Source: Tubulanus polymorphus (Eukaryota > Animalia > Nemertea). From it: a stretch of DNA of 64,000 bases. The notes beneath the pieces were generated by a model. The model was not told the DNA's origin. It was given only the letters and a program-made list of their open reading frames with translations, and searched no databases. Each line of letters starts with the position of its first letter. The stretch's first letter is position 1. The position numbers and the translations under genes were made by a program. The DNA lies in NCBI RefSeq assembly GCF_964204645.1, contig NC_134031.1, positions 11,038,088 to 11,102,087 on the forward strand, given 5' to 3'. This document shows, piece after piece, positions 9,506 to 58,045 of this stretch.

Positions 9506-10094
9506 TTAATACATAACACTATTTAATTGAGAATTTACAACATTTAATTGCGCATCAGATATAATATAAATATGCATTTTGAAATTTAAGCTTCCTTTTT
9601 TCTTTGTCATGAATAATTGTATTCCATCTTTAGTGTTCTGTAATTTCTTCCCAGAACCATGTAATGAATTATCCTCTATTGTTCTAAAATCTAACCATAG
9701 TGCGTATTTATTGCCGGTATAATAATCAATTTGATTAATATTACAATTTTCAGATGATTTCACTTTTTCATTCATAAAATGTTTTCTAATTTCTGGCCAT
9801 TGATCTATCATTCTCATTCCTTGACAAAATATTTTATTTGCTATTCCTTCGATAGTTATTTCTACTTTTGTTATTTCAGGATTATAATACTTATCAACCT
9901 GTATTGCGCCATTAGAATATGTTGCAATGGTAAAAAATATTAATATACCTTTAAAAGATCTTCTTGGGAAGTTAATATTCTCATTAATAATTTCATCATT
10001 TGCATTAATAGTTACAGTTTTAAATTTATCAATATAATCATATAATAATGAAAATCCTTGATTGTATTGAGTTTGAATTATACTTGAAATATTT
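9506..10094 (-). pseudogene. major capsid protein of element B, 3' half
   Basis: NISSIIQTQYNQGF...ISDAQLNVVNSQLNSVMY matches the C-terminal half of 21904-23151. Confidence 0.9.
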
Positions 10095-12285: not shown

Positions 12286-12375
12286 AAATTGTTAGATTGT
12301 TGAGCATTTGAAACCACTGCCCAAGTGAGCATGGTGTCCCTGGACCCCTAGTTTGGTTTCGTCGCCCGCAACAAT

Positions 12376-12780
12376 AGTAATAGGGGTTTAGTTGTTTCAT
12401 ACCAAAGGTCGAAAGGTCGAGCCCGAGAAATTTTCCAAAATGTTAAAATAACAACAATTTCTACTTGAATTAGTCGCGTACACTCCTAATTCAAGTAGAA
12501 ATTATTATTATTTTAACATTTGGAAAATTTATCAACCTCAACCTTTCGACCTTTGATATGAAACAACTAAACCCCTATTACTCTTAAAATATTCATATAT
12601 ATATATGAATAACATTTAAATCATTGAACTTCTAAAATCAATTTTAATAAAAAATATAGTATTAAAATGGAAGCAAATAAGTACTACTGCCCAACATGTA
12701 ATATCGATATAGATAAATCCCAAAAAGCAAGACATAATAAAACTAGAACACATTTAGAGAATAAATTGAAATTAGAATAT
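12376..12780 (+). repeat. left terminal inverted repeat (contains 207-bp palindrome and first 38 codons of PolB)
   Basis: Reverse complement of 30227-30628 with only a handful of differences. Confidence 0.95.
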
Positions 12781-15700: not shown

Positions 15701-16698
15701 TGCATTATAGAATGTTGAAGTTTTATTTGAATCAAGGAATGATATTAAAAAAAGTACATAGATATATTTCATTCAGTCAATCTAAATGGTTAGAAAAATA
15801 TATAGATTTTAATACTACACAGAGAACTAAATCTAAAACTGATTTTGAAAAAGATTTCTTCAAACTAATGAATAATGCATTCTATGGTAAGACTTGTGAA
15901 AACATAAGAAATAGAAATGATATCGAGTTAGTCAGTAATGGTAAAAGAATTAGGCATTTACAATCATATCCTAAGTTTATAGGTAACAGAATATTTGATG
16001 AAAATTTAGCAGCAGTTAAAATGAAAAGAACTTCAATGAAGTTCAATAAACCTATTTATGTTGGTGCTGCAGTTCTAGAAATTTCAAAATTCCTAATGTA
16101 TAAATTTTATTATAATATACTACAACCTCATTTTGGAGAAAAACACATAGAAATTCTATACTTTGATACCGACAGTTACATATTAAAGATTAAAACTGAT
16201 AACATAACAGATGATTTAAAAACATTAAAACACCATTTTGATTTTAGTAATTATCCTAAAAATCATGAATTGTTTAGCAATGATAATAAAAAAGTTCCCG
16301 GTAAATTCAAAGATGAATTAGGTGGTGAAGAAATGATAGAGTTCATTGGTATTAGATCTAAAATGTATTCATATAAAACTAAAGAACATGAAGCTAAAAA
16401 GTTAAAAGGAATTACCAAAAGCGTTGTTGAAAAGAATATTCATTTTAAAGATTACATCAATTGTATATTCAAAGAAGAAGTTAGAAAACATAAGATGAAA
16501 TGTTTGAGATCTGAAGATCATGAAATGTATATTGAAGAGATAGAGAAGATAAGTCTAAACCCATTTGATGATAAAAGATATATTTTAGATGATGGAATCC
16601 ACACAGTCGCCTATGGTTGCAATTTAGATGAATATATAAAATTCAAAAGAGAAGAAACAAAAGAAAATGAGATTATGAAAAGGATTCTAGCGTGTTAA
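12667..16698 (+). pseudogene. polB: protein-primed family B DNA polymerase (~1340 codons), single in-frame nonsense at 14152-14154
   Basis: N-terminal C2H2 fingers; ExoI YGDFES, ExoII FHNLSGYD, ExoIII YLKSD; YIDANNLYG, KLMNNAFYGK, YFDTDS; both ORF pieces in the same frame; element B has CAA where A has TAA. Confidence 0.95.
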
Positions 16699-16726
16699 TC
16701 AATTTCAATAAAAATTTGTATAATAA

Positions 16727-17068
16727 ATGGAGAGTAAACAAGTACACAGTGAATTCTTAGATAGAATTAAAGATACCACAAATGTAAAATCTGTAGATTA
16801 TAAATTCAAAAAGTTAACAGAATTAACAATTCACAAGAAATATTTAATTACTAACATTGAAACAATTACTAATAAATATGGAGATAAATTAGTAATTCAT
16901 TTAGAATATGAAGGATTAAAAGGAAATACATATAAATTCAGAACATATTTACCAGATAGATTTCATAGATTATCAAGTGAAGATCTAGAAGAATTATGTT
17001 CTGGAGATTTCTATTTCGTATACAAAGGTAAGAATGAAAAAGGGCACCATGAAATAGATTTCGAATAA
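16727..17068 (+). CDS. conserved small Polinton protein (possible OB-fold ssDNA-binding protein)
   Basis: Homologs at 36942-37288, 63145-63497, 53154-53480, 40-312; the function is inference only. Confidence 0.7.
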   Translation: MESKQVHSEFLDRIKDTTNVKSVDYKFKKLTELTIHKKYLITNIETITNKYGDKLVIHLEYEGLKGNTYKFRTYLPDRFHRLSSEDLEELCSGDFYFVYKGKNEKGHHEIDFE

Positions 17069-17085
17069 GAAAATATATAAAATAA

Positions 17086-17841
17086 ATGGTAGAATTAAAA
17101 GAATATAGAATATATGTTGATTCTAGAAAACTTACAAATTATAAATCTCATAATTTACTAGTACAATTAGACAGAGAATTCAAGAATTGTGTAGATTTAA
17201 AATTAGTTAATATAAGTTTATGTAATTCTTTTTACAATATATCAGATAAAACTTTTGAACATAGAGGGTTTATGATTTATATGAGAAATAAAGATAAATG
17301 GTTTCATATATTTTTAAAACCAGGATTATATAATTTAGAATCATTAGCGCAGGAAATTAATAGAAGAGCTCGGTTGAAAATCGGGGGCACTTCAGTATTT
17401 GAAATTAAATTTAATAAAATTGATAGTACTAATAAAATAAGAATAAAGATATCTAATGAACAACATAAATTTATGGTAAACAAACCACTGGCTAAAATGT
17501 TAGGAATTAAACCGCTTACAGTTACTGGAAACGCAGAAGGCAGCTCAAATATAATACCTTTTACACATTTTTATATTTATTGCAATTTAATCGAGCCTAC
17601 AAAAACTTTCGAAGCAACTAAAGAAACAATTTGTAGTTCTAGTATATTAAATATTTTACCATTAAAAAATGTTAAACAATTTGGAACTCAAATAAATTAT
17701 AATTTAACAGAATGTGATTTTAAACCATGCATTCCTAAATTTAATAATTTTAAATTAGAAATTAGAAATCATAATGGATACTTAATTGATTTAAATAATT
17801 TCCCTGTAATTTATGAATTAGTTATAAGATGTAAAGAGTAA
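17086..17841 (+). CDS. minor capsid protein (penton, PX-like)
   Basis: IYVDS...NSFYNIS...PGLYN...YIYCNLIE...ILNILP...LEIRNHNG..IDLN pattern typical of Polinton single jelly-roll pentons. Confidence 0.8.
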   Translation: MVELKEYRIYVDSRKLTNYKSHNLLVQLDREFKNCVDLKLVNISLCNSFYNISDKTFEHRGFMIYMRNKDKWFHIFLKPGLYNLESLAQEINRRARLKIGGTSVFEIKFNKIDSTNKIRIKISNEQHKFMVNKPLAKMLGIKPLTVTGNAEGSSNIIPFTHFYIYCNLIEPTKTFEATKETICSSSILNILPLKNVKQFGTQINYNLTECDFKPCIPKFNNFKLEIRNHNGYLIDLNNFPVIYELVIRCKE

Positions 17842-17857
17842 TTTTTTCACTATATAA

Positions 17858-18214
17858 ATGAATATAACTGTTGGACCAAGTATATGTTTTGGATTTGATT
17901 TTAAACGTGAGAAAGAAATGAAATTTAACATTAATGATGTAATAACACATATCAAAAATATTGTATTTTCTAATGAAACAACATTTGAGTATGAAACAAC
18001 AATAGATAAAGAAACTTTAAATGTAGAAAAGATTACTAATTTAATTAGAGAATCTTTAAGATTTTATGAATTAGATGAAGATTTTATCATCGATGATATT
18101 AAAAAAATACTAATTGAAATATATACAAATGAAACTAGTAATGAAATAAATGTTGAAATAATCATCACTAAGTTAACTAAATATTTTGATGATAGTAATT
18201 TTTTTGATAAATAA
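17858..18214 (+). CDS. hypothetical protein
   Basis: TAAATG start; homolog at 35826-36151. Confidence 0.7.
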   Translation: MNITVGPSICFGFDFKREKEMKFNINDVITHIKNIVFSNETTFEYETTIDKETLNVEKITNLIRESLRFYELDEDFIIDDIKKILIEIYTNETSNEINVEIIITKLTKYFDDSNFFDK

Positions 18215-18436
18215 ATGAGTGATAATAAGTGGATAATAACTGGATTATATAATGGCGCATTACTATCAGTTGGAACTGTTGGTTATTCAATGGTATTAAA
18301 AAAAGTATTTAAAATGGGAAGTGTTAATGTTGATAGATTTGATATAAATGATATTTTAAAGTTAACATTAGCAGTTACTTTATCTAATTTAACTATTGAT
18401 TATTTGGAAAAACAAAAATATATTCCTCCCATATAA
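18215..18436 (+). CDS. small hydrophobic protein (putative membrane)
   Basis: Two hydrophobic helices; near-identical copy at 35604-35825. Confidence 0.75.
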   Translation: MSDNKWIITGLYNGALLSVGTVGYSMVLKKVFKMGSVNVDRFDINDILKLTLAVTLSNLTIDYLEKQKYIPPI

Positions 18437-18459
18437 ATACATAATTTTTTGCTAAATAA

Positions 18460-18882
18460 ATGGCTTCTGCAATTATAACTATTATAGGATCAGCAATTGT
18501 TAACGCTTTAGCATTTACTGGTGGTGGTTATTTATTTAAACATATTGATAAAAATAGTTCATTAGGAGAACAAAGAAGACATAACTTAGCGTTAGAGAAA
18601 TACAATAAAGCTGCAGAAGAATATAGAGAAAAGAGGCAAAACTATATGGATTACATCAATAAAGAATTATATGATCAGAAGATTTCACATAGAGATTTTC
18701 AATCAGTTGATGATGCAATGAGTTTATATAACGCAGTAACAAATAAAGAAAAATTACATCTATACAAACCTAAATTATCAGATTATTATACCCCAAGTAA
18801 AGAACAACAGAAATATGAAATAATATGGATTTTAGGTGGAACAGTTATTGTTATATTTGTTGCTTATAAGTTTACTAATTAG
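18460..18882 (+). CDS. protein with N- and C-terminal hydrophobic segments and central coiled coil
   Basis: MASAIITIIGSAIVNALAF...; WILGGTVIVIFVAY; homolog at 35179-35579. Confidence 0.75.
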   Translation: MASAIITIIGSAIVNALAFTGGGYLFKHIDKNSSLGEQRRHNLALEKYNKAAEEYREKRQNYMDYINKELYDQKISHRDFQSVDDAMSLYNAVTNKEKLHLYKPKLSDYYTPSKEQQKYEIIWILGGTVIVIFVAYKFTN

Positions 18883-18901
18883 TAATTTTTATTCTAAATA
18901 A

Positions 18902-20161
18902 ATGGAAGATAAAGTTGATAGTATTGATATTATTCCTCATGATATAAATAAAACTAAATTAAAAACATATTTAGAAAAACAAATATTAGAATTTGAAAGT
19001 GACTTAAAGATAAAAATGGAAAATATATTTGATACATATGAAGTTACTTTTACTCGAGATGAATATCATATATATAAAGTAAAATCTAATATGAAATATT
19101 GGCAGAATCAATTAAATTTTGCTGTTTATTGTGCAACAACAGGATGTGGAATTAGTTGGAATGATCATTTAAATAACTTAGATAAAAATTTGAAGTATTC
19201 TGATTTAAAATTAATTCACACAATATTTAGATTTCACTCATATTTTCAAATCAGAATAATATTAAATGAATTAGAATGTCCTTTACCCGGGTCTAAATAT
19301 TTTAAAGAATTAGATAATAATATTAATATATCCAAGTTTTATAAAATATGTAATGAATTTAATATAAATATTAATTCCGATTTCAGAGCGCATGGTAAAT
19401 TGCAAGGTGTTGGTGAAGAGTATGAAATAAAAAGAATTGATTATATGCATAGAATTTCAGCTTATCATAATCATAAAATTGATAATGATAATGGTTGGGT
19501 TAATTTCATTTTAGAAAATGGTGAAGGTTTTACAAAATCAGGTATACAAAGAATAAATCAATCTATTAGAATTTATTTGATATGTATTTTAGGCGCTCAA
19601 GTTGAAACAAGATCCCAAATAATTGGAAATGATAACACTTCATTCGATGCGCAGAAACAGTTTAAAGTATTATTTGAAGATTCCATACATAATGATAAAA
19701 ATAGATCGATTCCAGAAAACATTATAAGATATCAAAATTATTTAGATAAATCTCATGTAAGACTTAATTATTGTATAGGCCCTAATCTATTAATTATTTC
19801 TAATGATTTAGTATTGAAGATGGGAAATATAATTGGTTATAATAATCTAATTAAAACTGCAACAATAAATAATTCATTTGGATTAAATGATATAAATAAA
19901 AAGATTATTACTGCTCCAAAATTAATGGAAGGTGAAAAAAATAAAAAACATATTCAATCAACTGAAACTAAAACTAAGAATATTAAATTGGTTAATGATT
20001 CTAAAATAAAAGATTACAATACATCAGAAAATATTAGAACTGATAAAATTCAACATGATATAATTAAACTAAATGATGATAATAAATCCCATGAAAATAC
20101 TAAATTAGCTATAACTTGTATAGGAATTGTAATCAGAGGAATATTATATTTTAAATTTTAA
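18902..20161 (+). CDS. conserved Polinton protein (WQNQLNFAVYCATTGCG) with C-terminal TM; in-frame fusion of two genes of element B
   Basis: First 38 aa match 34724-35158, the remainder matches 33344-34707. Confidence 0.75.
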   Translation: MEDKVDSIDIIPHDINKTKLKTYLEKQILEFESDLKIKMENIFDTYEVTFTRDEYHIYKVKSNMKYWQNQLNFAVYCATTGCGISWNDHLNNLDKNLKYSDLKLIHTIFRFHSYFQIRIILNELECPLPGSKYFKELDNNINISKFYKICNEFNININSDFRAHGKLQGVGEEYEIKRIDYMHRISAYHNHKIDNDNGWVNFILENGEGFTKSGIQRINQSIRIYLICILGAQVETRSQIIGNDNTSFDAQKQFKVLFEDSIHNDKNRSIPENIIRYQNYLDKSHVRLNYCIGPNLLIISNDLVLKMGNIIGYNNLIKTATINNSFGLNDINKKIITAPKLMEGEKNKKHIQSTETKTKNIKLVNDSKIKDYNTSENIRTDKIQHDIIKLNDDNKSHENTKLAITCIGIVIRGILYFKF

Positions 20162-20177
20162 TTTTTTTATTATGTAA

Positions 20178-21878
20178 ATGGATGTAGAAGGTGGAGAAGA
20201 TTATGAAATGGAAGAAATGGGAAATAATAATGAAGGATATATTGATGATGATTATAATGATGCAGGTGCTAATATTGATAATGATGATGAATCAGCATAT
20301 AATAATAATTTAGGTGAAGATGATGATTATGATGATGATTATGATGGTATTAATTCCGAATTACGTGAAAAATTAAATAAATATTTAAAAGCTCCTGAAA
20401 GTGGTAGAATTTCAACTAGAACAGAAAGAAAAGAATTTATGAAACTATTAGTAAAACAACAAGAAAAATATCCTGATAAACCTATGGAATTATATAAAAT
20501 GAAATCTAGAGTAACAGATACAATTGTTAACGAATTACTACCAATAGCTGTAATAGATGAAATTGATACTGAAGGTGTTGTAGAACAAATTTTTAAAGAT
20601 GACCCATATTTCACGAATAATTTAGAATTTAAAAATGATTCATGGTATTATAATCTTGAATTAAATAGGAATACTGTATCAATTCAATTATCTAGAATGG
20701 GTCAAGAAAATATTTTTGAACCTGGAATGCGAGCATTATCTACAATTGAAGGTTCAAAAGGTGGTAGAGAATTTCTCAGAATTATATGGAATGCAATCGA
20801 TAGAATAAATGAAAAAGAACCAATTCCTAATATTGATATAAACAAATATTCACCATTTAAAAATCCAAATCCAAATCCTACTGATTTTGATCCAGAAATG
20901 GAAGAGAATAGAAATCGATTAGATAGATTAAGATCTTCAACACCCGAAACATCGAGAAGAGACACTCAACAAATTGATAATGATTCAAGTAAATTACAAT
21001 TAGAAAAACAAATTGATAGATTAAGAGATTCAGAAGAAGAAATGAATAGTACTGGAATAAATCGACTGCAATATTTACTAGAAAAAGGATTATTTGATTT
21101 AACTGATGATGAATTAGAAGCATTTCCTGAACAAACACGTAGAGAAATTAAAGGTACGCAAGAATCAGCTGATAAAATTGCGCATGATAAAAGTATAAGA
21201 GATTTTAAAATTAGAACTTTAGAAAAAGAATTAACTGATAAAAATAAAGAAATAGAACAATTAAAATTAGATAGAGATAATAAAGTTATTGAAGAAATTG
21301 AATTTAAAAAAAGAAATGCATATTTAGAAAAAGAAATTGATGATTTAGAATATAACATAGAATTACAAAAAGAAGAAATTAAATTATTATTAAAATCATA
21401 TGATTATAATATTAATAGATTAAAAGTTATTTTTAAAGATTTGTTGATTAAACCAAATTCTGAAATATCATTAAAAGACAGAATAAAATTATTATTTAAG
21501 TTAGAAGGAATAACAATTCTTTCAATTCTAACATCTGTAACTATGTTATTTACAACAATTGGTTTAGCAATATCAAATGCTTTGAAATCTACTCCTACTC
21601 CTACTCCAAATAAACCAGATAAACCTCCAGGTAATAATTCTATACAAGATAAAGTTAAAGATGGTTTAAAGAAATTAGCAAAATATTTATGGGAACTATC
21701 AAAGAAATCTGCTGCAGCTTTACCAGGAGATATTGCTTCAATTGTTGGTTTTATATTGAAATCTGCAGGAAACATTATTAACTTTGCTGCTGAACATATT
21801 ATTTTATTTTTAATTACAGTTGTAAGTGCTATTATTTTTGGTTTAGTAAATATGATATCAAAAAATATCAAAAAATAA
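20178..21878 (+). CDS. acidic/coiled-coil protein with C-terminal multi-TM region
   Basis: D/E-rich N-terminus, heptad region, hydrophobic ITILSILTSVTMLFTTIGLAI and IILFLITVVSAIIFGLV. Confidence 0.8.
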   Translation: MDVEGGEDYEMEEMGNNNEGYIDDDYNDAGANIDNDDESAYNNNLGEDDDYDDDYDGINSELREKLNKYLKAPESGRISTRTERKEFMKLLVKQQEKYPDKPMELYKMKSRVTDTIVNELLPIAVIDEIDTEGVVEQIFKDDPYFTNNLEFKNDSWYYNLELNRNTVSIQLSRMGQENIFEPGMRALSTIEGSKGGREFLRIIWNAIDRINEKEPIPNIDINKYSPFKNPNPNPTDFDPEMEENRNRLDRLRSSTPETSRRDTQQIDNDSSKLQLEKQIDRLRDSEEEMNSTGINRLQYLLEKGLFDLTDDELEAFPEQTRREIKGTQESADKIAHDKSIRDFKIRTLEKELTDKNKEIEQLKLDRDNKVIEEIEFKKRNAYLEKEIDDLEYNIELQKEEIKLLLKSYDYNINRLKVIFKDLLIKPNSEISLKDRIKLLFKLEGITILSILTSVTMLFTTIGLAISNALKSTPTPTPNKPDKPPGNNSIQDKVKDGLKKLAKYLWELSKKSAAALPGDIASIVGFILKSAGNIINFAAEHIILFLITVVSAIIFGLVNMISKNIKK

Positions 21879-21903
21879 ATAATTAATTTTTTTTGTTAAA
21901 TAA

Positions 21904-23151
21904 ATGAGTGGGATTTATATAAGTCCTTCGAAGATTTCTAGAATATCTAATGCTATTAAAGCAGAAAGATCACATCATATAATTACTCATAACCCTTCAA
22001 ATATTAATCCCGATGAAACTTTATACGTTAGAATCCTTAGATTAACACAAAATACTTTTTACGTTCCAAATAGTATTTATTTATCAGCCGATATAAAAGT
22101 AATCGGTAATAATAATAATTATGTCGTTGATAATGTTGGAAGATATTTGATTAAAAAGTTAACCATAAAGATTGGTCCAGAAACAGTTTTCTCATTAGAT
22201 GATTATAATTTATTTATGCATTATAAAGATTTATGGTTAACTAAAGAAAATAGAAATAATATGATATTTCAAGGCATCCAATCAGAAAACCAAAATAAAT
22301 TAAGATCAGAAGCTAATAGTGCAATATTAACAAATGATGTAGATAAATTGATAAAAAGTATATATGGAAGCAAATATAAAATTCCATTAGACTTTGAATT
22401 GATAAATAATAATGCACCTTTATATAAATACGCAATTCAAGAAGATATTATATTTGAGATAACATTTGCTCCTGTAAATGAAATTGTATTATCTAGCGTT
22501 AATAAAGATATGAGTTATAAATTATCGAATATATGTTTAGAATATGATACAGTAACTGATGAAAATATTTCAAGTATAATTCAAACAAAATATAATCAAG
22601 GGTTTTCATTATTATATGATTATATTGATAAATTTAAAACTGTAACTATTAATGCAAATGATGAAATAATTAATGAGAATATTAACTTTCCTAGAAGATC
22701 TATTAAAGGTATATTAATATTTTTTACTATTGGAACGTATACTAATGGTGCAATAAATGTTGATAATTATTATAATCCTGAAATAACAAAAGTAGAAATA
22801 ACTATCGAAGGAATAGCGAATAAAATATTTTGTCAAGGAATGAGAATGATTGATCAATGGGTAGAAATTAAAAAACATTTTATGAATGAAAAAATAAAAT
22901 CATTTGAAAATTGTAACATTAATCAAATTGATTATTATACCGGTAATAAATATGCATTATGGTTAGATTTTAGAACAACTGAAGATAATTCATTACATGG
23001 TTCTGGAAAAAAACTACAAAATACAAAAGATGGGATCCAATTATTTATGAAAAAGAAAAAGGGAATCAAAAATTTTAAAATGCACATTTATATTATATCT
23101 GACGCGCAATTAAATATTGTAAATTCACAATTAGATAGTGTTATGTATTAA
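21904..23151 (+). CDS. major capsid protein (double jelly-roll, PY/hexon-like)
   Basis: 415 aa beta-rich protein, highly conserved between copies; HNPSNINPDETLYVRI, IPLDFE, LEYD and ALWLDFR motifs recognised from animal Polinton capsids. Confidence 0.8.
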   Translation: MSGIYISPSKISRISNAIKAERSHHIITHNPSNINPDETLYVRILRLTQNTFYVPNSIYLSADIKVIGNNNNYVVDNVGRYLIKKLTIKIGPETVFSLDDYNLFMHYKDLWLTKENRNNMIFQGIQSENQNKLRSEANSAILTNDVDKLIKSIYGSKYKIPLDFELINNNAPLYKYAIQEDIIFEITFAPVNEIVLSSVNKDMSYKLSNICLEYDTVTDENISSIIQTKYNQGFSLLYDYIDKFKTVTINANDEIINENINFPRRSIKGILIFFTIGTYTNGAINVDNYYNPEITKVEITIEGIANKIFCQGMRMIDQWVEIKKHFMNEKIKSFENCNINQIDYYTGNKYALWLDFRTTEDNSLHGSGKKLQNTKDGIQLFMKKKKGIKNFKMHIYIISDAQLNIVNSQLDSVMY

Positions 23152-23183
23152 AATTTTAACTTTAATAAAAAATCTTATATTAA

Positions 23184-24333
23184 ATGGAAGGTGGAATATA
23201 TGAAATACAATCTCCAAGTGAAATGATATCAGATATATATTATATATTACCTTATGATGAATACAGTAAGTATTTTGGAGATTACTTTAATCAATTCAAA
23301 TATAGAATAAGTAAAATAGATAAGAATATTGAAACAAAAATAGAAGATAATATTGAACCTAAAATAGAAGATAAGAATGATATTGAATATAAAATAGAAG
23401 ATAATATTGAATCTAAAATAGAAGATAATGTTATACCTTCTACATCGAATTATGATATTGAATCAAAAAAGACAAATGAAAAATATTGTGACGTATGTAA
23501 ACAGTATAAAAGTTATAAGAATTGGGCAACTCATCTTAATTCACTCAAGCATAAGAAAAATAAGAATAAGATTTTAAATGAATTGAATAATGATAGTGAA
23601 ATTGATAGTGATAATGTTAAAGAAGATAAATATTGTGAAGAATGTGATAAATATATAAGTCGTAGTAATTTTTCAAAGCATAAATTAACACAGATACATT
23701 TGGATAATATAGAAAGAAATATATGTGAAAAGTGTAATGTTGTTGTATTACCTAAAGATAGAATTAAACATGATAATTCTTTTGAACATACAATAAAAGC
23801 TGCTGATTTAAATTACCTTTATAGAGCACCAAGTGTATTTTTTGATATCGAAAATAATGATCATAGGAAATTATATAGATCAATTTTTATCGATTATGTA
23901 AGAAATAATCCAAAACAAGTATTATCAGATCTAAAAACTCCTTCGGATGATTATAAAAATTTATCTAAATAATTATTGGAGTATACATTATTTCATAAAA
24001 TTTAAAAATATAGATTTTTTAACAGAATTGAAAAAAGTTGCTGTTAATGATAATTATGATAATAAAAGTGATAACTTTGATGAAATAATTCAATACTACA
24101 GTTATGAAGATTTTTCACAGGATGTTATAAATAAAATAAGAAATGAAGCAAAAAATGAATACAAAAATATAAGTGAAGACAAATTAAACCAATATATTTA
24201 TTTAACTTATGAATTCTGGGTTAAGGGTTTGAACGGTAATGGTTATCATTTTAAACTATTAGGTGAAAGAAGATCGCAAGAATTAAGAGATGCATGGATC
24301 AAATTGTTTTCAGAATTAGAATCAGAAAAGTAA
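23184..24333 (+). CDS. variable multi-Zn-finger protein with KIEDNIE repeats (23184-23972) plus overlapping 23947-24333, probably one frameshifted gene
   Basis: Three CxxC-x12-H-x5-H-like fingers; the second ORF lacks the TAAATG start and overlaps by 26 bp. Confidence 0.6.
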
Positions 24334-24359
24334 TTTAAAATATGAATATAATACCCTTT

Positions 24360-24888
24360 GTGTCTTTATTGTCTTTAGTAGTTTAGTACTTTTAGTACAT
24401 AAAGAATAAATCTTTATTTTATAAGTAGTGAATAAAATTATTTTTAAAACTACTAAACTACTAAAGACAATAAAGACATAAATATATATATAACACTGTT
24501 TCAATAATTATATTTATTCATCTGATGGATTTTATATATTACTGTTTCAATAATTAAATCTATTTATTATATATATCATAGATTTATCATTTATATATTT
24601 ATTTTTCTAAGTACTAATTAAATAAAGATTTATTCTTTATGTACTAAAAGTACTAAAGATAATAAAGACATAACAAAACATATATAGATGTAATAAATAT
24701 CATAGATTTATTTATCTCACATATTTATTATATATATTTGATTCAGTAATGATAAATCTATGGTGTTTGTTATGTCTTTATTATCTTTAGTAGTTTAGTA
24801 GTTCTATTTTATTTTTAAAGTATTAATAAAATAAAGATTTATTCTTTATGTACTAAAAGTACTAAACTACTAAAGATAATAAAGACAT
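24360..24888. repeat. nested inverted-repeat region between convergent gene blocks
   Basis: TGTCTTTATT[G/A]TCTTTAGTAGTTTAGTA and its reverse complement at ~24361, 24453, 24773, 24860; partial copy at ~24620-24672. Confidence 0.85.
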
Positions 24889-24946
24889 TAGGGGGAGGTA
24901 TATAATGCATATCTAATACATATCTAATACATAGGTATACAAATAG

Positions 24947-25561
24947 TTATTTTATAAACTTATATTCATATGGAAATTGTAATCTCATAAGTAATTTTGA
25001 ACCTTAATTATTTTTTAATTTATTCATATATTCATCATGTAATTCAGGAGGTATAATTTGATTTTCTTCCAATGATTGTTGCATAGATTTTCTATCTTTA
25101 TTGTAGAATAAAACTAGAAATCTTATATTCTCTCTAAAATCTTTCACAATTGAATTATATTTCTGATTTAAAACCCATGTTGTTATCCCAAAATGTCTCC
25201 CAGAGAAAGCTAAGTAACATAACTCACTTTCTCTCACTTTTGAATCATGTAAATTAGCGCAATCATCTACAATGAATAATGTATTAGATCCTTTATAAAT
25301 ATCTAATGCAATTTTTATACAATTATCTAAATTTTCTTTTACTGTTTTAGAATTTAATATAATAAACTTTTTATCTTTAAAAACTATATCTCTATTATAC
25401 GTTTCATTCATTTCATAAGTAGGGCAGAATAATATTATATTATCAAAATGATTCTTATAAATAGTTTCTAACAAATCTAATATGAAATGTGTTTTACCAC
25501 AGTTTGTTACTCCAGTAACTAACATATTATGTGGTTCAAATATAAACAAATCTTTATTCAT
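24947..25561 (-). pseudogene. packaging ATPase with nonsense codon ~19 codons before the normal end
   Basis: Walker A/B present; after TAA at 25004-25006 the frame continues GSKLLMRLQFPYEYKFIK*. Confidence 0.9.
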
Positions 25562-26639
25562 TTATTCTTTTAATTTTACTAGATAAAATCCATTCATTAA
25601 ATTTATCATCATATCCTTTATATTTCACCAAAGAATACTTTTTTCCTTTAAGAGTTTTAGTTTTTAATACCTTTTCTACTTTGTATTCTATTTCATCTGG
25701 ATTTGGTACTAATGATAATTCTTGTTCATAGAAATAACCTAATATTTCTTCATCTTTTAGATCTTCTAGTTTATAAACAAATGGTTTAGTTAATATTATC
25801 TTTTTAATTTTAAATATTTCTTCAGTAAAATTAGGGGTATAACCTTTATAAAATGTTTTTCTATATTTAGAAATTCTAACATGTTGTCCTATTTTAAATT
25901 TAGGTTCTCCAAAATCATGTGTAACAAATGCTCCATATAAATTATTCCAAACTATTTCTGAATTTTCTTCTTTTCTAGCTTGTATAGGTTTCATATTTAT
26001 AGAACTATGTTTAGAATTATTATAACCTTTAACTAAATCATCTAACACATTGATATATTTATATGTTTCATTAGCGGTGAAATATTTCCACATTCTAGTT
26101 TTCAATGTTTTATTAAATCTTTCTATAACGGATGCTTTTTTATCTGAATGTGTTGAAAAATATTCTACATCGTTATCAATTAATAGTTTTTTGAAATGTT
26201 TGTTATAAAATTCTTTACCTTCATCAAATTGTATTTTATCTGGAATAGCTTCTTTAAATATAGATTTAAAAGCATTTGTTACTTCTATTCCAGTTTTATT
26301 TTTAATCGGGATACTCCATGCGTATCTACTGAATATATCTATAACATTTAGTATCCAAAAATATCCTTTGTTATATTCTTCTAAGTTTTTCATATCAATT
26401 AAATCAGCTTGCCATTGTTGGTCAATATATGAAACCATTACTTTTCTTGTTAAATATTTTTTATCCATTTTCTTGTGGATTTGATATGTGGGTTGATTTT
26501 GTAACCATGATTTTAATTCACTATATTTTATTTTTTCTTTATCAGATTTAATTTTATCCCATAATTCTGAAACGTTAGAATATGATACTTCACTTTCTGG
26601 GTTGTAATATAAATCTCTCAAATATTGTTCTTTTTTCAT
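25554..26639 (-). CDS. int: retroviral-like DDE integrase with C-terminal chromodomain (intact)
   Basis: WQADLID, IQFDEGKEF, IERFNKT; YKVEKVLK...LVKYKGYDDKFNEWI chromodomain. Confidence 0.95.
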   Translation of the reverse strand: MKKEQYLRDLYYNPESEVSYSNVSELWDKIKSDKEKIKYSELKSWLQNQPTYQIHKKMDKKYLTRKVMVSYIDQQWQADLIDMKNLEEYNKGYFWILNVIDIFSRYAWSIPIKNKTGIEVTNAFKSIFKEAIPDKIQFDEGKEFYNKHFKKLLIDNDVEYFSTHSDKKASVIERFNKTLKTRMWKYFTANETYKYINVLDDLVKGYNNSKHSSINMKPIQARKEENSEIVWNNLYGAFVTHDFGEPKFKIGQHVRISKYRKTFYKGYTPNFTEEIFKIKKIILTKPFVYKLEDLKDEEILGYFYEQELSLVPNPDEIEYKVEKVLKTKTLKGKKYSLVKYKGYDDKFNEWILSSKIKRINE

Positions 26640-26645
26640 CTTATT

Positions 26646-27035
26646 TTAATCCATTAATAATAATTTAGATTTATTTTCAATGACTTTATGATTTGACTTA
26701 TTTTCTGGTATAATATGTTTCCGATTGTCATTGGAATCATCTTTATCATCAGATTTGAATTTTGATTTATATATTACACCAGATAATATAATAACTGTTA
26801 CTAATCCAATTGTAATATATAATTTATAATTACTTCCAGCATTAGAAGAATTAGATGGATTATTATTTGAATCAATACCACCGTGTGGGTGCTGTACGGC
26901 ACCATCAGGTGATTCATTTATGTCAGTTAATTTCTTTTTCTTAGCTTTTTTTAATTCTGATGATCTTTTACCTAATTCTCTTGCCCATTTAATTTGTTTC
27001 TCGGATCTAGCCTTTTTCTTAACTCCATCACTCAT
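26646..27035 (-). CDS. small basic single-TM protein
   Basis: LYITIGLVTVIILSGVIY; homologs at 6144 and ~53610-53977. Confidence 0.75.
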   Translation of the reverse strand: MSDGVKKKARSEKQIKWARELGKRSSELKKAKKKKLTDINESPDGAVQHPHGGIDSNNNPSNSSNAGSNYKLYITIGLVTVIILSGVIYKSKFKSDDKDDSNDNRKHIIPENKSNHKVIENKSKLLLMD

Positions 27036-27630
27036 TTATTTTACTTAATTTTTGTTCTGATTCATTTTCTGTTTCGATGTTTGGTTGTAGTACATCTGTT
27101 TCGTTCTTACCTGATTTATATTCCATAGGCTTGATGTTCGAAAATGTTATGACACCAGTAGAAATTAATGTCATAACCGATCCTAATTGAAATGAAGCAT
27201 ATCCAACCCATTTTTGTAATTCAGTCATAACTAAATAGTCATTTTTCAAATCATTATATAATTTATTTTCATCATCAATTGGTATTAACTGGTTACATAA
27301 TTTTGAATAACATTTGACAATACCATCTGAAATAGAATCATTTATTCTAGCTAATCTTGCCTCTTCATAAATCTTAAAATATTTTATTACTTTATCTGGT
27401 TTCATAGAGTCTAGTTCTTGAAAAGTTATTATTTTTCCCAAGAAGTCCTCAGATTTCCCGCCAGCAATTAATAATTCAAGATGATGCTTACAATATAAAT
27501 AGTATTCATAATCTATATTGTTATTAACTTGAGCACAATTAGTTACAACTGTATCTTTATTATCACTTATACCCAAATCATCTAATGTCTTTTCAATATC
27601 AATACTATTCTTATTAGATTTCTTTGACAT
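27028..27630 (-). CDS. conserved hypothetical protein with C-terminal hydrophobic segment
   Basis: Homologs at 5544-6134 and 53925-54509. Confidence 0.8.
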   Translation of the reverse strand: MSKKSNKNSIDIEKTLDDLGISDNKDTVVTNCAQVNNNIDYEYYLYCKHHLELLIAGGKSEDFLGKIITFQELDSMKPDKVIKYFKIYEEARLARINDSISDGIVKCYSKLCNQLIPIDDENKLYNDLKNDYLVMTELQKWVGYASFQLGSVMTLISTGVITFSNIKPMEYKSGKNETDVLQPNIETENESEQKLSKINE

Positions 27631-28044
27631 TTATATTAGAGAAAAAAAGCAAAAAAAATATTATAAGTATTCTTCAAATGATACTAGTATCTCTTTAGGT
27701 TAATACTAAATTGACTAGGTTAGTTAAAGTTAAAGAATTTCTATTCAAATCTATTCAAAATCTATTCAATCTAATGTCAATTAGAATTACCAAAAGAAAA
27801 TATTGAAAATATAATAGAATTGACTAGCTAGTTGAAGTTATTGTTTTTTTTTATTATATTTTATTTAAATTAGGATTTAGATTATCTCACTACTATTGTC
27901 TATCTATTAGGAGCAGTAACTATAACTGTCCAGATAAGTCATTTCGGATTCTCGATAATAAATCCTAAAACTGAAAATAAATTCAAAGAAACGACTGGTG
28001 GAATTACTATTTCATAAACACATATATTTATTATGTAAATTTTA

Positions 28045-28425
28045 GCGATCGATAATAGAACAATGGAGAACAATAGAAATGCGGTCCAATCGGACCGGTT
28101 ATTGCGCAATACACAGTTATATTTTTATTCTAACAACGATCAATAATAGAACAATGGAGAACAATAGAAATGCGGTCCAATAGGACCGGTTATTGCGCAA
28201 TACACAGTTATATTTTTATTCTAACAACGATCAATAATAGAACAATACAGAACAATAGAAAAGCGGTTCAATCGGACCGGTTATTGCGCAATACACAGTT
28301 AACAGTAAACTATCAATACAGAACAACCGCCGCCATTAACAACGATCAATAATAGAACAATAGAGAACAATAGAAAAGCGGTTCAATCGGACCGGTTATT
28401 GCGCAATACTTAGTTAACAGTAAAC
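28045..28425. repeat. tandem repeat of ~90-120-bp units (GAACAATAGAAA[T/A]GCGGT[C/T]CAATCGGACCGGTTATTGCGCAATAC)
   Basis: Four units; a single homologous unit at ~49630-49750. Confidence 0.85.
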
Positions 28426-28792
28426 AATACAATATTAAAACAGATATATACAACATTTTTTGATATCTATATTACAAAGACCTTCAGTGTTATAATTTAT
28501 AATTTTGTCCAGAATTCTTTAATTACTGGATTGTTTCCAATCAATTCTTCAATTTCTGGTAAATGTCTTACTACTTCACTAAATGCTAATCCTAATATTT
28601 TGAATTTTTCATATTTTATTAATCTACCTACTCTTCTCAGTTTTCTTTCAAAACCGGCACTGATATCTCCACTCATTTTCTTAGTTTTCGATTATTTGAG
28701 TCCCAACAGCAATTTGAGTCGCGTTGCTGGTAATTTTGGTAATTGTAGTTCGCGCGGTAATTGTTTATTATGTATTACATCACTCAGAGTTT

Positions 28793-28963
28793 TCACCATT
28801 TCTTGATGATAGTCCAAATGTTCTTATAATTTTGTGAAGTTTGTTCGTCAATTACGAGAGTTTCATCCTCCATTTCTATTGATTCCTGAGTTTCACTATC
28901 TATCGTTTCTGGTTCCTCATACGTTGGTTGGCTTAGAATTTCTGGTTGATCTTTGTGTTCCAT
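28793..28963 (-). CDS. small acidic ORF (56 aa, MEHKDQPEILSQP...), below the ORF-track cutoff
   Basis: TAAAATG start; homologous 39-aa ORF at 4962-5081. Confidence 0.4.
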   Translation of the reverse strand: MEHKDQPEILSQPTYEEPETIDSETQESIEMEDETLVIDEQTSQNYKNIWTIIKKW

Positions 28964-29357
28964 TTTAATCTAAAAGATATCGTGAAAATGAATTACTGTA
29001 CTTAAATATGTTTAAAGGTTTCCCTACTTCATAATATATTTACTTACATTTAGATTTAGAACTGTAAACTGTGTTTTGAGAGAGAATATCCAATACGTTC
29101 CTATGCTTATGTGCTGCGCGTTTATAACTGGCAGTTATTCACTAGCTTAACACCGTCTGGTGCAACAGATGTTCCTTCTTTTGTAATATAATTGATTAAT
29201 CCTTTTCAACTGAAATAGCACGTTCGATCAATATTCAAATGAGGTGCGCCCCATTCAACTGAATATGAAATACGGCACAGATGTTTTTGTAAATAACCTA
29301 ATGCAATTAAATATAGGCGGTTTGACATAGATCGAGAGTAACCGGTTTTCTAAGCAC

Positions 29358-30011
29358 TTAAGCTTCAACGTATTTTTCATTATGTGTTGAATTCCATAAT
29401 TCAACAAATGTCTTTGCTTTATCCAGTTGATCTAAATATAACTGTATATCTAGTTTATTAGATTTAATTATATTTTCTTTCTTTTCAAGAGGCCTTAAAT
29501 TTCTCCAACCCCAAATAAGTTTTTTATTGTATTCATCATTCATGTCAAATTTAGAAATCGGCAACACGTGATCAATATGAAAGTATTCACCATAATTATC
29601 TATATTCATTTTATCATCGAATTGATATATTATCCATGATTTTAAGAATTCATCTGAACAACCCAATAGATTAGATAGTGTTTCTGAATGTGTTTCTTTG
29701 TTGAATAATTGTGTTAATCTAGACCGTAAACATTGTTTCAATCTAAAATTAAGATCTGTTTGATATCTTTCTCTCATATATTCTGCCATATAATAATTAT
29801 AATGTTCTATATTATCTTCTCGGTATTGTTTGGTGTATAGTTTAAAACAAGTTTTACAGCAATATTGAAAACCATCTTTGCTAATCTTACGCTTACTAAA
29901 TTCTGTTAAAGCTAATTTATCTAATTCACATTTAGAACACTTCTTGTAGTATATGTTTATGACGCCAGTGTTATTTGTAATATTGATAATTTGTGGTTGT
30001 TCTGGTTCCAT
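29358..30011 (-). CDS. Zn-finger + HNH-like endonuclease (NCLDV-type)
   Basis: CSKC...CKTC; FHIDHVLP...NLRPLEKKENIIKSNK. Confidence 0.8.
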   Translation of the reverse strand: MEPEQPQIINITNNTGVINIYYKKCSKCELDKLALTEFSKRKISKDGFQYCCKTCFKLYTKQYREDNIEHYNYYMAEYMRERYQTDLNFRLKQCLRSRLTQLFNKETHSETLSNLLGCSDEFLKSWIIYQFDDKMNIDNYGEYFHIDHVLPISKFDMNDEYNKKLIWGWRNLRPLEKKENIIKSNKLDIQLYLDQLDKAKTFVELWNSTHNEKYVEA

Positions 30012-30088
30012 TTATTATATGTATTTTTTACTAAATTGGTTAATATTTTAGAATCCTCTTCCATTTCTTCGACCAACGTCATCCTTTT

Positions 30089-30340
30089 TCATTCTTCGTT
30101 GCTTTTGATAAGTTGTTTCGATTCCTTGATAATAAATTCCTCAACGTATTGTTCATTATTTGGATCATTATTCCATAATTCAATAAATTTCTTTCCCTTT
30201 GTTAACTGTTCTGAATATAACTGTAAATATTCTAGTTTCAATTTATTCTCTAAATGTGTTCTAGTTTTATTGTGTCTTGCTTTTTGGGATTTATCTATAT
30301 CGATATTACATGTTGGGCAGTAGTACTTATTTGCTTCCAT
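30089..30340 (-). CDS. TIR-derived chimeric ORF: PolB N-terminal Zn finger fused to an HNH-gene C-terminal-like helix
   Basis: First 38 aa identical to PolB; LQLYSEQLTKGKKFIELWN resembles IQLYLDQLDKAKTFVELWN. Confidence 0.6.
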   Translation of the reverse strand: MEANKYYCPTCNIDIDKSQKARHNKTRTHLENKLKLEYLQLYSEQLTKGKKFIELWNNDPNNEQYVEEFIIKESKQLIKSNEE

Positions 30341-30628
30341 TTTAATACTATATTTTTTATTAAAATTGATTTTAGAAGTTCAATGATTTAAATGTTATTC
30401 ATATATATATGAATATTTTAAGAGTAATAGGGTTTAGTTGTTTCATATCAAAGGTCGAAAGGTTGAGGTTGATAAATTTTCCAAATGTTAAAATAATAAT
30501 AATTTCTACTTGAATTAGGAGTGTACGCGACTAATTCAAGTAGAAATTGTTGTTATTTTAACATTTTGGAAAATTTCTCGGGCTCGACCTTTCGACCTTT
30601 GGTATGAAACAACTAAACCCCTATTACT
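30227..30628 (-). repeat. right terminal inverted repeat (palindrome 30423-30628)
   Basis: Reverse complement of 12376-12780. Confidence 0.95.
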
Positions 30629-30885
30629 AACAATTCAATAGTTTGTTTTTGTCGTCCGCGACAATTCATTATTTTGGTTTTATCGCCCGCAACAATTCAA
30701 AATTTTGGTTTTAACGCCCGCGACAATTCATTATTGTGGTTTTATCGCCCGCGACAATTCATTATTTTGGTTTTATCGCCCGCGACAATTCATTATTTTT
30801 GTTTTGTCGCCCGTGACAATTCAATATTTTGGTTTTGTCACCCGCGACAATTCATAATTTTGGTTTTGTCGCCCGTGGTTTTGTC
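30629..30885. repeat. continuation of 31-bp tandem array
   Basis: Resumes in phase after the TSD (AACAAT TCAATAGTTTG...). Confidence 0.95.
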
Positions 30886-31119
30886 GGAACATTAAGTTTT
30901 TGGTCGAACTGTGTGTTAAGGTTGTTTTGGAAATTTACTCGGTCTGGTATATTTTGGATTAATGTGTATGTCATTTGTCAGGACATTAAACAGAAGACGA
31001 CTTAGGATACTACCTTGCGTGACTCCACTAGTTAGACCGTCTCATTCCAAGATGAGGCCGTTGAACAGGATTCTAAGACTGTGCAGAAAACCCGTTATCG
31101 CTGCTTTGCAGCTATATTT

Positions 31120-31778
31120 TTATCAGTTATTGTATCATATTCTAAACATATATTCGATAATTTATAGCCCATATCTTTATTAACGCTAGATATTACAATT
31201 TCATTAACAGGAGCAAATGTTATTTCGAATATAACGTCTTCTTGAATTGCGTATTTATATAAAGGTGCATTATTATTTATCAATTCAAAATCTAATGGAA
31301 TTTTATATTTGCTTCCATATACACTTTTTATCAATTTATCTACAGCATTAGTTAATATTGAGCTATTAGCTTCTGATCTTAATTTATTTTGGTTTTCTGA
31401 TTGGATGCCTTGAAATATCATATTATTTATATTTTCTTTAGTTGACCATAAATCTTTATAATGCATAAATAAATTATAATCATCTAATGAGAAAACTGTT
31501 TCTGGACCGATCTTTATTGTTAATTTTCTAATCAAATATCTTCCAACATTATCAACAACATAATTATTATCATTACCAGTTACTTTTATATCGGCTGATA
31601 AATAAATACTATTTTGAACATAAAAAGTATTTTGTGTTAATCGAGGAATTCTAACATATAAAGTTTCATCGGGATTAATATTAGAAGGGTTATGAGTAAT
31701 TATATGATGTGATTTTTCTGCTTTAATAGCATTAGATATTCTAGAAATCTTAGAAGGACTTATATAACTCCCACTCAT
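31120..31778 (-). pseudogene. major capsid protein of element B, 5' half
   Basis: Near-identical to 21904-22560; joins 10094 in frame. Confidence 0.9.
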
Positions 31779-58042: not shown

Positions 58043-58045
58043 TGT

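What the first reader, a model, noticed from the sequence alone, without database searches (positions are those of the whole stretch)
16724..30014. Poxvirus late-initiator TAAATG at 13 of 17 gene starts: candidate helper-dependent (virophage-like) animal Polinton
Seen: in element A the ATG is embedded in TAAATG at 16727, 17086, 17858, 18215, 18460, 18902, 20178, 21904, 23184 (+) and 25561, 27035, 27630, 30011 (-). It is usually preceded by a short A/T tract in intergenic gaps of 0-35 bp. The exceptions are PolB and its TIR twin (TAAAATG), integrase (ATAAGATG) and a likely frameshift piece. The motif persists in element B (3924, 5544, 6144, 7594, 9456, 31778, 33328, 34707, 35158 and others), before unrelated N-termini, and in the divergent copy (53154, 54509). 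Genes are intronless and full of AATAAA, with no room for Pol II promoters. Established: TAAATG is the poxvirus late-promoter initiator, and virophages copy their helper's late promoters. From memory, Polinton-like viruses linked to entomopoxviruses have been reported (needs checking). Inference: the structural module is transcribed in the cytoplasm by a poxvirus/NCLDV RNA polymerase, so this could be an endogenous virophage of an animal poxvirus-like virus.
Basis: partly seen in the sequence, partly recalled or inferred. Interest (0 to 1): 0.88.

Follow-up and report, generated by a model that had tools for sequence, protein, structure and literature searches.

The report
Animal Polinton with poxvirus-style promoters
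A virus-like jumping element, integrated in what is likely an animal genome, starts nearly all its genes at the short signal that poxviruses use for late genes, as do its close relatives but not its more distant ones, so it likely borrows the RNA polymerase of a large helper virus that has not yet been identified.

Summary
All 13 listed starts read TAAATG, against 42 of 702 other ATGs. Element A (12376-30628) is an integrated Polinton-like virus with inverted repeats, a 6-bp target duplication, polymerase, integrase, ATPase and jelly-roll capsid; no protease or RNA polymerase was detected.

The motif marks one clade. It precedes 36 of 40 validated starts in close relatives and 0 of 22 in AT-rich sister lineages. 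It is bipartite: T at -12 in 56 of 62 starts versus 39 of 116 non-start TAAATG. The published vaccinia late consensus fits 47 of 62. It also sits at 12 of 14 head-to-head starts, which argues against stop-start coupling, poly(A) overlap and Kozak context.

Best reading: post-replicative promoters for a helper nucleocytovirus's polymerase (about 0.65). "Poxvirus" is not established. Iridovirus-type records also start 25 of 92 genes with TAAATG, the T peak lies one base from vaccinia's, and the two entomopoxviruses sampled lack the T core. No transcripts or helper were seen, and my searches found no such report for animal Polintons.

The parts
12376..30628 (.). Element A: integrated Polinton-like virus, termini 5'-AG...CT-3'
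   Evidence: termini, TIR alignment; 368 reads join 12375 to 30629, skipped part begins AG and ends CT
12370..12375 (+). Left copy of 6-bp target-site duplication AACAAT, in a unit resembling the 31-bp satellite
30629..30634 (+). Right copy of the 6-bp target-site duplication
12376..12780 (+). Left terminal inverted repeat (about 404 bp, 98.8% identical to the right one); holds the PolB start with TAAAATG
30227..30628 (-). Right terminal inverted repeat; holds the short twin ORF start at 30340 with TAAAATG
12667..16698 (+). Protein-primed DNA polymerase B with zinc-finger N-part and endonuclease VII-like domain; broken by one in-frame stop at 14152-14154
   Evidence: DNA_pol_B_2 E 3e-16; Endonuclease_7 and zf-C2H2 below cut-off; stop position
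16724..17068 (+). o3, 113 aa, unknown function; TAAATG start (A-rich core)
   Evidence: 35 relatives found; 15 scanned, no informative Pfam family
17083..17841 (+). o4, 251 aa, probable minor capsid protein (inferred; weak DUF5901 match only); TAAATG start
17855..18214 (+). o5, 118 aa, unknown; TAAATG start
18212..18436 (+). o6, 73 aa conserved small protein; TAAATG start, the only direct stop-start junction in element A
18457..18882 (+). o7, 140 aa, predicted membrane protein conserved in sister lineages; TAAATG start
18899..20161 (+). o8, 419 aa conserved helical protein with a moderately hydrophobic segment, fold not identified; TAAATG start
20175..21878 (+). o9, 566 aa coiled-coil protein with C-terminal hydrophobic segments; TAAATG start
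21901..23151 (+). Double-jelly-roll major capsid protein, 415 aa; TAAATG start with T-rich core
   Evidence: (pLDDT 89.8)
23181..24333 (+). o11 (262 aa, zinc-finger-like; TAAATG start) and overlapping piece o12, probably one gene split by a frameshift
   Evidence: (relatives 408-431 aa)
24334..25003 (.). Convergent junction with a long AT-rich inverted repeat (hairpin)
   Evidence: z about -16 against base shuffles
25004..25564 (-). A32-like packaging ATPase; TAAATG start at 25561
   Evidence: (Pox_A32 E 1e-12)
25554..26639 (-). Retroviral-type integrase with chromodomain; start reads ATAAGATG (exception; TAAATG in L001)
26646..27038 (-). o15, 129 aa, one hydrophobic segment; TAAATG start at 27035
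27028..27633 (-). o16, 200 aa conserved protein; TAAATG start at 27630 with T-rich core and 1.7 kb non-coding DNA upstream
29358..30014 (-). o17, 217 aa HNH-like nuclease (DHVLP motif) with relatives in IMG/VR contigs, two of them giant-virus (GVMAG) records; TAAATG start at 30011
   Evidence: HNH_4 weak

Best explanation
Element A is an integrated Polinton-like virus whose genes nearly all start at a two-part signal (a T-rich core peaking 12 bases before the ATG, then TAAATG) that likely acts as a late promoter for the RNA polymerase of a co-infecting large DNA virus, so the element would multiply as a virophage-like parasite. Shown here: the element's anatomy, the motif, its fixed spacing, its confinement to one clade, its independence from upstream genes, and no detectable polymerase or transcription factor in the element. 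Inferred by analogy with vaccinia: transcription starts on the AAA, the T is not transcribed, and slippage adds a 5' poly(A) leader. That would put A at -3 in the mRNA and explain why the DNA breaks the Kozak rule. Inferred by analogy with mavirus: integrated copies stay silent until a helper infects the cell. The helper is more likely pox-like (about 0.4 overall) than iridovirus-like or another nucleocytovirus (about 0.25).
For: Enrichment: 13 of 18 starts vs 42 of 702 ATGs. Clade-wide: 59 of 71 ORFs and 36 of 40 validated starts in 16 loci at >=50% capsid identity, vs 1 of 47 (0 of 22) in AT-rich and 8 of 351 (2 of 82) in GC-richer sister loci that share the conserved genes. In the capsid tree 14 of 14 clade rows and 0 of 36 others have it (quick tree, SH-aLRT 99). 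It persists at 44% GC (L008: 3 of 4 starts, only 4 TAAATG among 179 ATGs). Second element: T at -12 in 56 of 62 starts vs 39 of 116 non-start TAAATG. The vaccinia late pattern T-N9-TAAATG fits 47 of 62 vs 37 of 116, and the Group I pattern 27 of 62 vs 6 of 116 (patterns from Table 1 of PMC11423596). 12 of 14 head-to-head starts with gaps of 17-72 bp carry it. AATAAA is not avoided in clade ORFs (63 vs 61; 130 vs 136) but is mildly avoided in AT-rich sisters (47 vs 61, z -2.5). Vaccinia polymerase reads TAAA directly (PMC12917281). Precedent: mavirus and Sputnik carry their helpers' late promoters (PMC6723459), and PLVs occur with entomopoxviruses (PMC11296320).
Against: No transcript, 5' end or helper was observed. 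TAAATG is not diagnostic of poxviruses: 25 of 92 starts in iridovirus-type loci and 9 of 17 in L107 carry it (L110, L115 and L107 were found with a motif-based pattern). The clade's T peak is at -12, the vaccinia consensus at -13. Neither sampled group shows the T core: iridovirus-type 10 of 25, entomopoxvirus 9 of 16 at -12 and 6 of 16 at -13. The vaccinia intermediate spacing fits 0 of 62. Integrase (in element A, L004 and L005) and PolB deviate. The motif arose once on the tree, so the clade is one evolutionary event. A nuclear provirus is hard for a cytoplasmic poxvirus polymerase to reach (inference). Coral polintoviruses express their core genes in ordinary colony RNA-seq (PMC11131425; clade not determined). 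TTTTTNT depletion is not specific.
Confidence: 0.65

Rival explanations
1. The signal is read by the host: a Pol II core promoter giving near-leaderless mRNAs, or a host-specific translation-start context.
For: Copies are integrated and numerous, with access to nuclear Pol II. Polintovirus genes are expressed in coral RNA-seq (PMC11131425). The host's own start context could not be measured, because no genome is held.
Against: T at -3 opposes the purine seen in 22 of 22 AT-rich and 70 of 82 GC-richer sister starts. The two LINE ORFs in the window lack it. Divergent pairs 17-30 bp apart leave little room for two Pol II promoters. AATAAA is not avoided in ORFs. The motif spans capsids down to 51% identity from different metagenome assemblies.
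Confidence: 0.13
2. The motif is a relic: a helper-dependent ancestor fixed it, and today's copies spread by another route.
For: Element A's PolB has an in-frame stop and the other copies in the window are fragmented. No helper was found.
Against: It is kept at orthologous and non-orthologous genes whose spacers have diverged, in rearranged gene orders, at cargo genes such as a deoxynucleoside kinase in L003, and at 20-44% GC. This implies long maintenance.
Confidence: 0.1
3. A by-product of compaction: the upstream gene's poly(A) signal (AATAAA) or stop codon overlaps the next ATG, or the T tract is a trans-splice acceptor.
For: 31 of 62 motif starts read AATAAATG. 6 of 16 element A genes have AATAAA within 50 nt after the stop. 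39 motif starts follow a same-strand gene closely.
Against: 12 of 14 head-to-head starts, and 2 of 3 starts more than 150 bp from an upstream gene, carry it. Only 4 of 59 are stop-start coupled. AG occurs in -15..-1 in only 8 of 62. A poly(A) signal needs no exact register with ATG or with a T at -12 (inference).
Confidence: 0.07
4. The element family, or another resident element, encodes its own factor or polymerase for the motif, as yeast linear plasmids do with a TAAAN initiator.
For: Yeast virus-like elements use a vaccinia-like initiator with their own polymerase (PMC6211774). Several ORFs (o3, o5, o8, o16) have no assigned function.
Against: No polymerase, capping or transcription-factor family among 23 window proteins or 29 window and clade proteins. 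Most unassigned ORFs are small or hydrophobic.
Confidence: 0.05

Closest known systems
Virophages mavirus (CroV) and Sputnik (mimivirus); PLV Gezel-14T/PgVV
   Same: Small integrating or helper-dependent dsDNA viruses with a jelly-roll capsid and A32 ATPase whose genes carry the helper's promoter motif (PMC6723459; 10.1101/2022.07.28.501842).
   Different: Protist hosts, mimivirus-type motifs, dependence shown by experiment. Here the host is likely an animal, the motif is the pox-type initiator fused to the ATG, and the helper is unknown.
Entomopoxvirus-associated PLVs (AHEV_PLV1/2, CBEV_PLV1, Ca_PLV1; Barth et al. 2024, PMC11296320)
   Same: Animal PLVs proposed as poxvirus hyperparasites; divergent capsids missed by standard profiles; Ca_PLV1 is integrated in a beetle chromosome.
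   Different: About 12 kb, all encode a cysteine protease, and no rve integrase was reported. Element A is 18 kb with rve integrase and no detected protease. The main text reports no promoter analysis.
Maverick-Polintons (Polintoviricetes groups 1 and 2)
   Same: pPolB, rve integrase, A32 ATPase, DJR capsid, TIRs, AG...CT ends, 6-bp TSD (the TSD and end rule is recalled).
   Different: No protease found; several predicted membrane proteins; the capsid model ranks nucleocytovirus capsids above the adintovirus entry (rank 27). It may belong with the animal elements placed near Aquintoviruses (10.64898/2026.06.19.733378); not tested.
Vaccinia late promoter
   Same: TAAATG overlapping the start codon, a short spacer, and a T-rich core.
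   Different: The conserved T is at -13 in the published consensus and peaks at -12 here; function here is untested.
Starts of invertebrate iridovirus-type genes
   Same: TAAATG at 25 of 92 starts. Late genes are thought to be transcribed by the viral polymerase, and the virus has a nuclear phase (PMC8400408; PMC5294985).
   Different: All 25 read AATAAATG and show no T core; only 31 of 62 clade starts read AATAAATG.

Membership tests
Polinton / Polinton-like virus | Protein-primed PolB | tested here: met
   DNA_pol_B_2 E 3e-16; gene broken by one in-frame stop
Polinton / Polinton-like virus | rve integrase, TIRs, 6-bp TSD | tested here: met
Polinton / Polinton-like virus | DJR major capsid protein and A32-like ATPase | tested here: met
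Polinton / Polinton-like virus | Minor capsid protein | tested here: inconclusive
   o4 has only a weak DUF5901 match; not folded
Group 1 Maverick-Polintons | Adenovirus-type cysteine protease | tested here: inconclusive
   No protease family in any ORF by Pfam; a divergent one is not excluded
Poxvirus late promoter | TAAAT(G) overlapping the start codon | tested here: met
   13 of 18 in element A; 62 of 74 in the de-duplicated clade set
Poxvirus late promoter | T-rich core with a conserved T ten bases before TAAAT | tested here: inconclusive
   T at -13 in 47 of 62 vs 37 of 116 (enriched), but the peak is at -12 (56 of 62), one base off; no chordopoxvirus DNA was obtained for a direct comparison
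Poxvirus late promoter | Transcription starts in the AAA with an untemplated 5' poly(A) leader, made by viral polymerase after DNA replication | not testable with these tools
   No RNA holder listed
Poxvirus intermediate promoter | A-rich core about 14 nt before TAAA | tested here: not met
   0 of 62 at that spacing; 9 of 62 have TAAAAA at 9-10 nt instead
Poxvirus early gene | AAAANTGAAAA promoter and TTTTTNT avoidance in ORFs | tested here: inconclusive
   One exact early motif, at 27967 in non-coding DNA; TTTTTNT is depleted but so are other homopolymer runs
Iridovirus-type gene start | AATAAATG without a T core (pattern seen here in 25 of 25 motif starts) | tested here: not met
   31 of 62 clade starts are AATAAATG and 56 of 62 have the T; small iridovirus sample
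Virophage-like (helper-dependent) virus | No own RNA polymerase | tested here: met
   None by Pfam; the element is only 18 kb
Virophage-like (helper-dependent) virus | Promoter shared with an identified helper | tested here: inconclusive
   No helper identified; related motifs in both entomopoxvirus and iridovirus-type loci
Virophage-like (helper-dependent) virus | Replicates only with the helper and affects its yield | not testable with these tools
   Needs infected material
Entomopoxvirus-associated PLV lineages | Capsid in the AHEV_PLV1/CBEV_PLV1 or AHEV_PLV2/Ca_PLV1 lineage | not tested
   Their sequences were not among my named hits; supplements not read

The most novel reading that the evidence does not exclude
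A distinct clade of Polinton-like viruses, integrated in many copies in invertebrate germlines, are endogenous virophages of poxvirus-like viruses. Their genes are wired for the viral post-replicative polymerase, so they switch on only during infection, may act as inherited antiviral defence as mavirus does, and betray a pox-like virus lineage not yet known from these hosts.
Probability: 0.35. Interest if true: 0.92.

Novelty: new variant of a known kind. Interest (0 to 1): 0.74.

Why it matters
How animal Polintons are expressed, and whether they make virions alone or need a helper, is a long-standing open question. A clade-specific, two-part viral promoter turns it into direct tests: 5' ends, poly(A) leaders, reporter activity in infected cells, and co-occurrence with a helper. 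If true, virophage-style parasitism, so far shown in protists, extends to inherited elements of animals, and the motif becomes a fingerprint for finding the unknown helper. Sister lineages with the same genes lack the motif, which suggests that helper dependence can be gained or switched by rewiring promoters alone.

Tried and rejected
No host genome is held, so host start contexts and a resident helper could not be searched. No RNA holder was listed; the one guessed RNA run laid only 7 short pieces. This is no evidence on expression. Capsid and ATPase scans of IMG/VR found no relative. GTDB gave 2 short distant loci. Nineteen viral loci found with the HNH-like gene carry TAAATG at only 10 of 239 starts, so they point to no helper. 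A motif from a vaccinia scaffold found nothing in IMG/VR, and VLTF3 searches reached no chordopoxvirus, so no chordopoxvirus promoters were compared directly. The o8 model was weak (pLDDT 55.7) and matched only generic helices. The capsid profile had no PDB sequence hit. o3 relatives have no informative Pfam family. TTTTTNT depletion was rejected as specific evidence. The split into A-rich cores (o4, o11, o15, ATPase) and T-rich cores (o6, o7, o8, o16, capsid) is significant (p=2e-4), but I chose the grouping after seeing element A and orthologues are not independent, so it is a lead only. Its reading as vaccinia intermediate versus late fails on spacing. Trans-splice acceptor was rejected (AG rare). 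The integrase start contains TAAG (baculovirus late motif, recalled), but that motif occurs 101 times in the element and was rejected. Yang et al. 2011 and 2012 were not held. The careful tree did not finish; the quick tree is used.


Full report
1. Observation. An ORF scan and a context table confirm TAA directly before the ATG at all 13 listed starts. I count 13 of 18 candidate starts; the exceptions are PolB and its TIR twin (TAAAATG), integrase (ATAAGATG), the piece at 23947 and an internal Met at 14422. Only 42 of 702 other ATGs in the element have this context (p=5e-12). AAAATG is not enriched (2 of 18 vs 40 of 702). A control for taking the first ATG after a stop gives 16 of 197. Of 19 starts checked in other copies in the window, 17 read TAAATG; these copies are close relatives.

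2. What the element is. Element A runs 12376-30628, begins AG and ends CT, has 404-bp inverted repeats (98.8%) and a 6-bp duplication AACAAT beside a 31-bp satellite. In a raw-read DNA run 368 reads join 12375 to 30629, and the 600-bp bins average about 26 to 1,040 reads deep with over 2,600 listed differences across the four runs, which indicates a multi-copy family (no single-copy baseline, so no copy number). Pfam finds protein-primed PolB, an A32 ATPase and an rve integrase with chromodomain. PolB is broken by one in-frame stop. The 415-aa ORF at 21904, folded with 111 sequences (110 of the 120 listed homologues plus the query), is a double jelly roll (pLDDT 89.8) matching PBCV-1, iridovirus and other nucleocytovirus capsids. 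No protease, RNA polymerase, capping enzyme or transcription factor was found. o7, o9 and o15 have hydrophobic segments. The host is likely an animal: a LINE in the window has a sea-anemone protein as its only hit named to a species among 120 listed. The phylum is not determined.

3. The motif marks one clade. A metagenome scan kept the best 80 of 154 loci. In 16 loci at >=50% capsid identity, 59 of 71 ORFs and 36 of 40 alignment-validated starts read TAAATG. In 12 AT-rich sister loci the counts are 1 of 47 and 0 of 22, with a purine at -3 in 22 of 22. In 52 GC-richer sister loci they are 8 of 351 and 2 of 82. The longer sister loci share o6, o7, o8, o9, o16, capsid, ATPase, integrase and PolB. 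A quick tree of 50 capsids (loci without a capsid ORF of 380 aa or more were left out) puts the 14 motif-bearing rows in one clade (SH-aLRT 99); 0 of 36 other rows have it. This is one gain on the tree, not many independent cases. It survives in GC-richer members.

4. The motif has two parts. After dropping four loci as near-duplicates (L002, L010, L012, L014), 62 of 74 starts carry it. T stands at -12 in 56 of 62, against 39 of 116 non-start TAAATG in the same DNA (p=6e-14), and T enrichment runs from -15 to -12. The vaccinia late consensus T-N9-TAAATG (Table 1 of PMC11423596) fits 47 of 62 vs 37 of 116, and the longer Group I pattern fits 27 of 62 vs 6 of 116. The peak is one base nearer than in vaccinia, and the intermediate pattern fits 0 of 62.

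5. Trivial causes. Stop-start coupling: 4 of 59. Poly(A) overlap: half of the starts read AATAAATG, but 12 of 14 head-to-head starts with 17-72 bp gaps also have the motif. Trans-splicing: AG within 15 nt in 8 of 62. AATAAA is not avoided inside clade ORFs, while AT-rich sisters avoid it mildly (z -2.5). TTTTTNT depletion is not specific.

6. Which helper? The highest full-length loci were L107, L115 and L159. L159 is an entomopoxvirus. L115 and its relatives are iridovirus-type (Pfam families, whose taxonomic range I recall). L110's record length equals that listed for Chilo iridescent virus. Iridovirus-type loci have TAAATG at 25 of 92 starts, always as AATAAATG and with no T core (10 of 25 vs 45 of 122). 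Two entomopoxvirus records have 16 of 39, with T at -12 in 9 of 16. So TAAATG alone is shared by several large DNA viruses of animals. The T core points to the chordopoxvirus description, but I could not compare real chordopoxvirus promoters. Iridoviruses have a nuclear phase, which would ease access to an integrated copy; this is my inference.

7. Mechanism. Vaccinia polymerase reads TAAA at -1 to +3 (PMC12917281) and slips on it to add a 5' poly(A) leader (PMC12722222; PMC6211774). If the same holds here, each gene has a roughly 20-bp promoter ending in its start codon, which fits gaps of 0-35 bp and divergent pairs. The mRNA would begin with As before AUG. Mavirus and Sputnik carry their helpers' late promoters, and integrated mavirus is switched on by CroV (PMC6723459). 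I put helper-polymerase dependence at 0.65, host Pol II or translation context at 0.13, relic at 0.10, compaction by-product at 0.07 and a self-encoded factor at 0.05.

8. Novelty. Nine paper searches (Polinton with TAAATG, promoter or helper terms in 8, 11, 43, 92, 99) listed no paper reporting this motif in animal Polintons. Subscription papers are not covered. What I saw: PMC11296320 outline, term search and parts 1-2 of 4 of Results; 10.64898/2026.06.19.733378 passages and section 7; passages only of PMC5294985, PMC11980589, PMC11423596, PMC12917281, PMC12722222, PMC6211774, PMC6723459, PMC11131425, PMC6401483, PMC3061580, PMC8400408, PMC4542343 and 10.1101/2022.07.28.501842; search listing only of PMC3185713. 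No supplements were read; those of PMC11296320 and of the 2026 preprint may hold related elements. An earlier unchecked note of this scan on another genome (e1-8580207) reaches a similar reading. It is not independent support, and its polymerase-subunit claim was not reproduced in the proteins I scanned.

9. Verdict. A real, strong and clade-specific feature. It works most likely as a helper-virus late promoter; membership among poxvirus parasites is not shown. New variant of a known kind; interest 0.74.

Noticed in passing
window 24334-25003; L001 3688-3852; L005 3121-3277: Long AT-rich hairpins at the convergent junction before the ATPase (z -16, -11, -10 against base shuffles). 2 of 4 clade-locus junctions are strong; the strongest of 19 sister junctions is z -3.5, though most of those have no gap. 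They recall the mimivirus/Sputnik hairpin poly(A) signal and may be terminators.
   Followed up: partly
window 9506-10094 and 31095-31778: The capsid gene of the surrounding copy (element B) is split: residues 1-224 at 31778-31107 and 221-415 at 10093-9509. About 21 kb, made of satellite, other repeats and element A, lies inside it.
   Followed up: partly
L110, L115, L224-L233: Iridovirus-type genes start with a strict AATAAATG (25 of 25 motif starts; 20 of 25 TAATAAATG). The review passages I read do not describe this as an iridovirus promoter.
   Followed up: partly
L016, L024, L049, L050, L053, L069, L072: Sister lineages have other start-proximal words (TATAAAA, TATATA, TATAGA, and AATTTTCTGCC in L049), possibly promoters for other polymerases.
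   Followed up: no
window 12637-12666, 16697-16726, 30012-30041: PolB, o3 and o17 share an extended upstream word of the form CAATTT..TAAAAA; in the TIR its reverse strand reads AAAATTGA (12645-, 30362+), the mimivirus early motif.
   Followed up: no
window 28041-28460: 91-115 bp tandem repeats in the element's 1.7-kb non-coding stretch, with a related copy at 49629-49751.
   Followed up: no
L003 10340-10981: Deoxynucleoside kinase cargo gene with the TAAATG start.
   Followed up: no
P0045 and its cluster: Capsid relatives at 54% identity are filed under Bartonella sp. assemblies, probably host DNA carried along; the clade may reach terrestrial arthropods (inference).
   Followed up: no
window 55457-59392: LINE with RT and endonuclease, and an ORF1 with zinc knuckle and GDSL esterase-like domain.
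   Followed up: partly
L176: Sputnik-type virophage contig with TAAATG at 3 of 7 starts.
   Followed up: no
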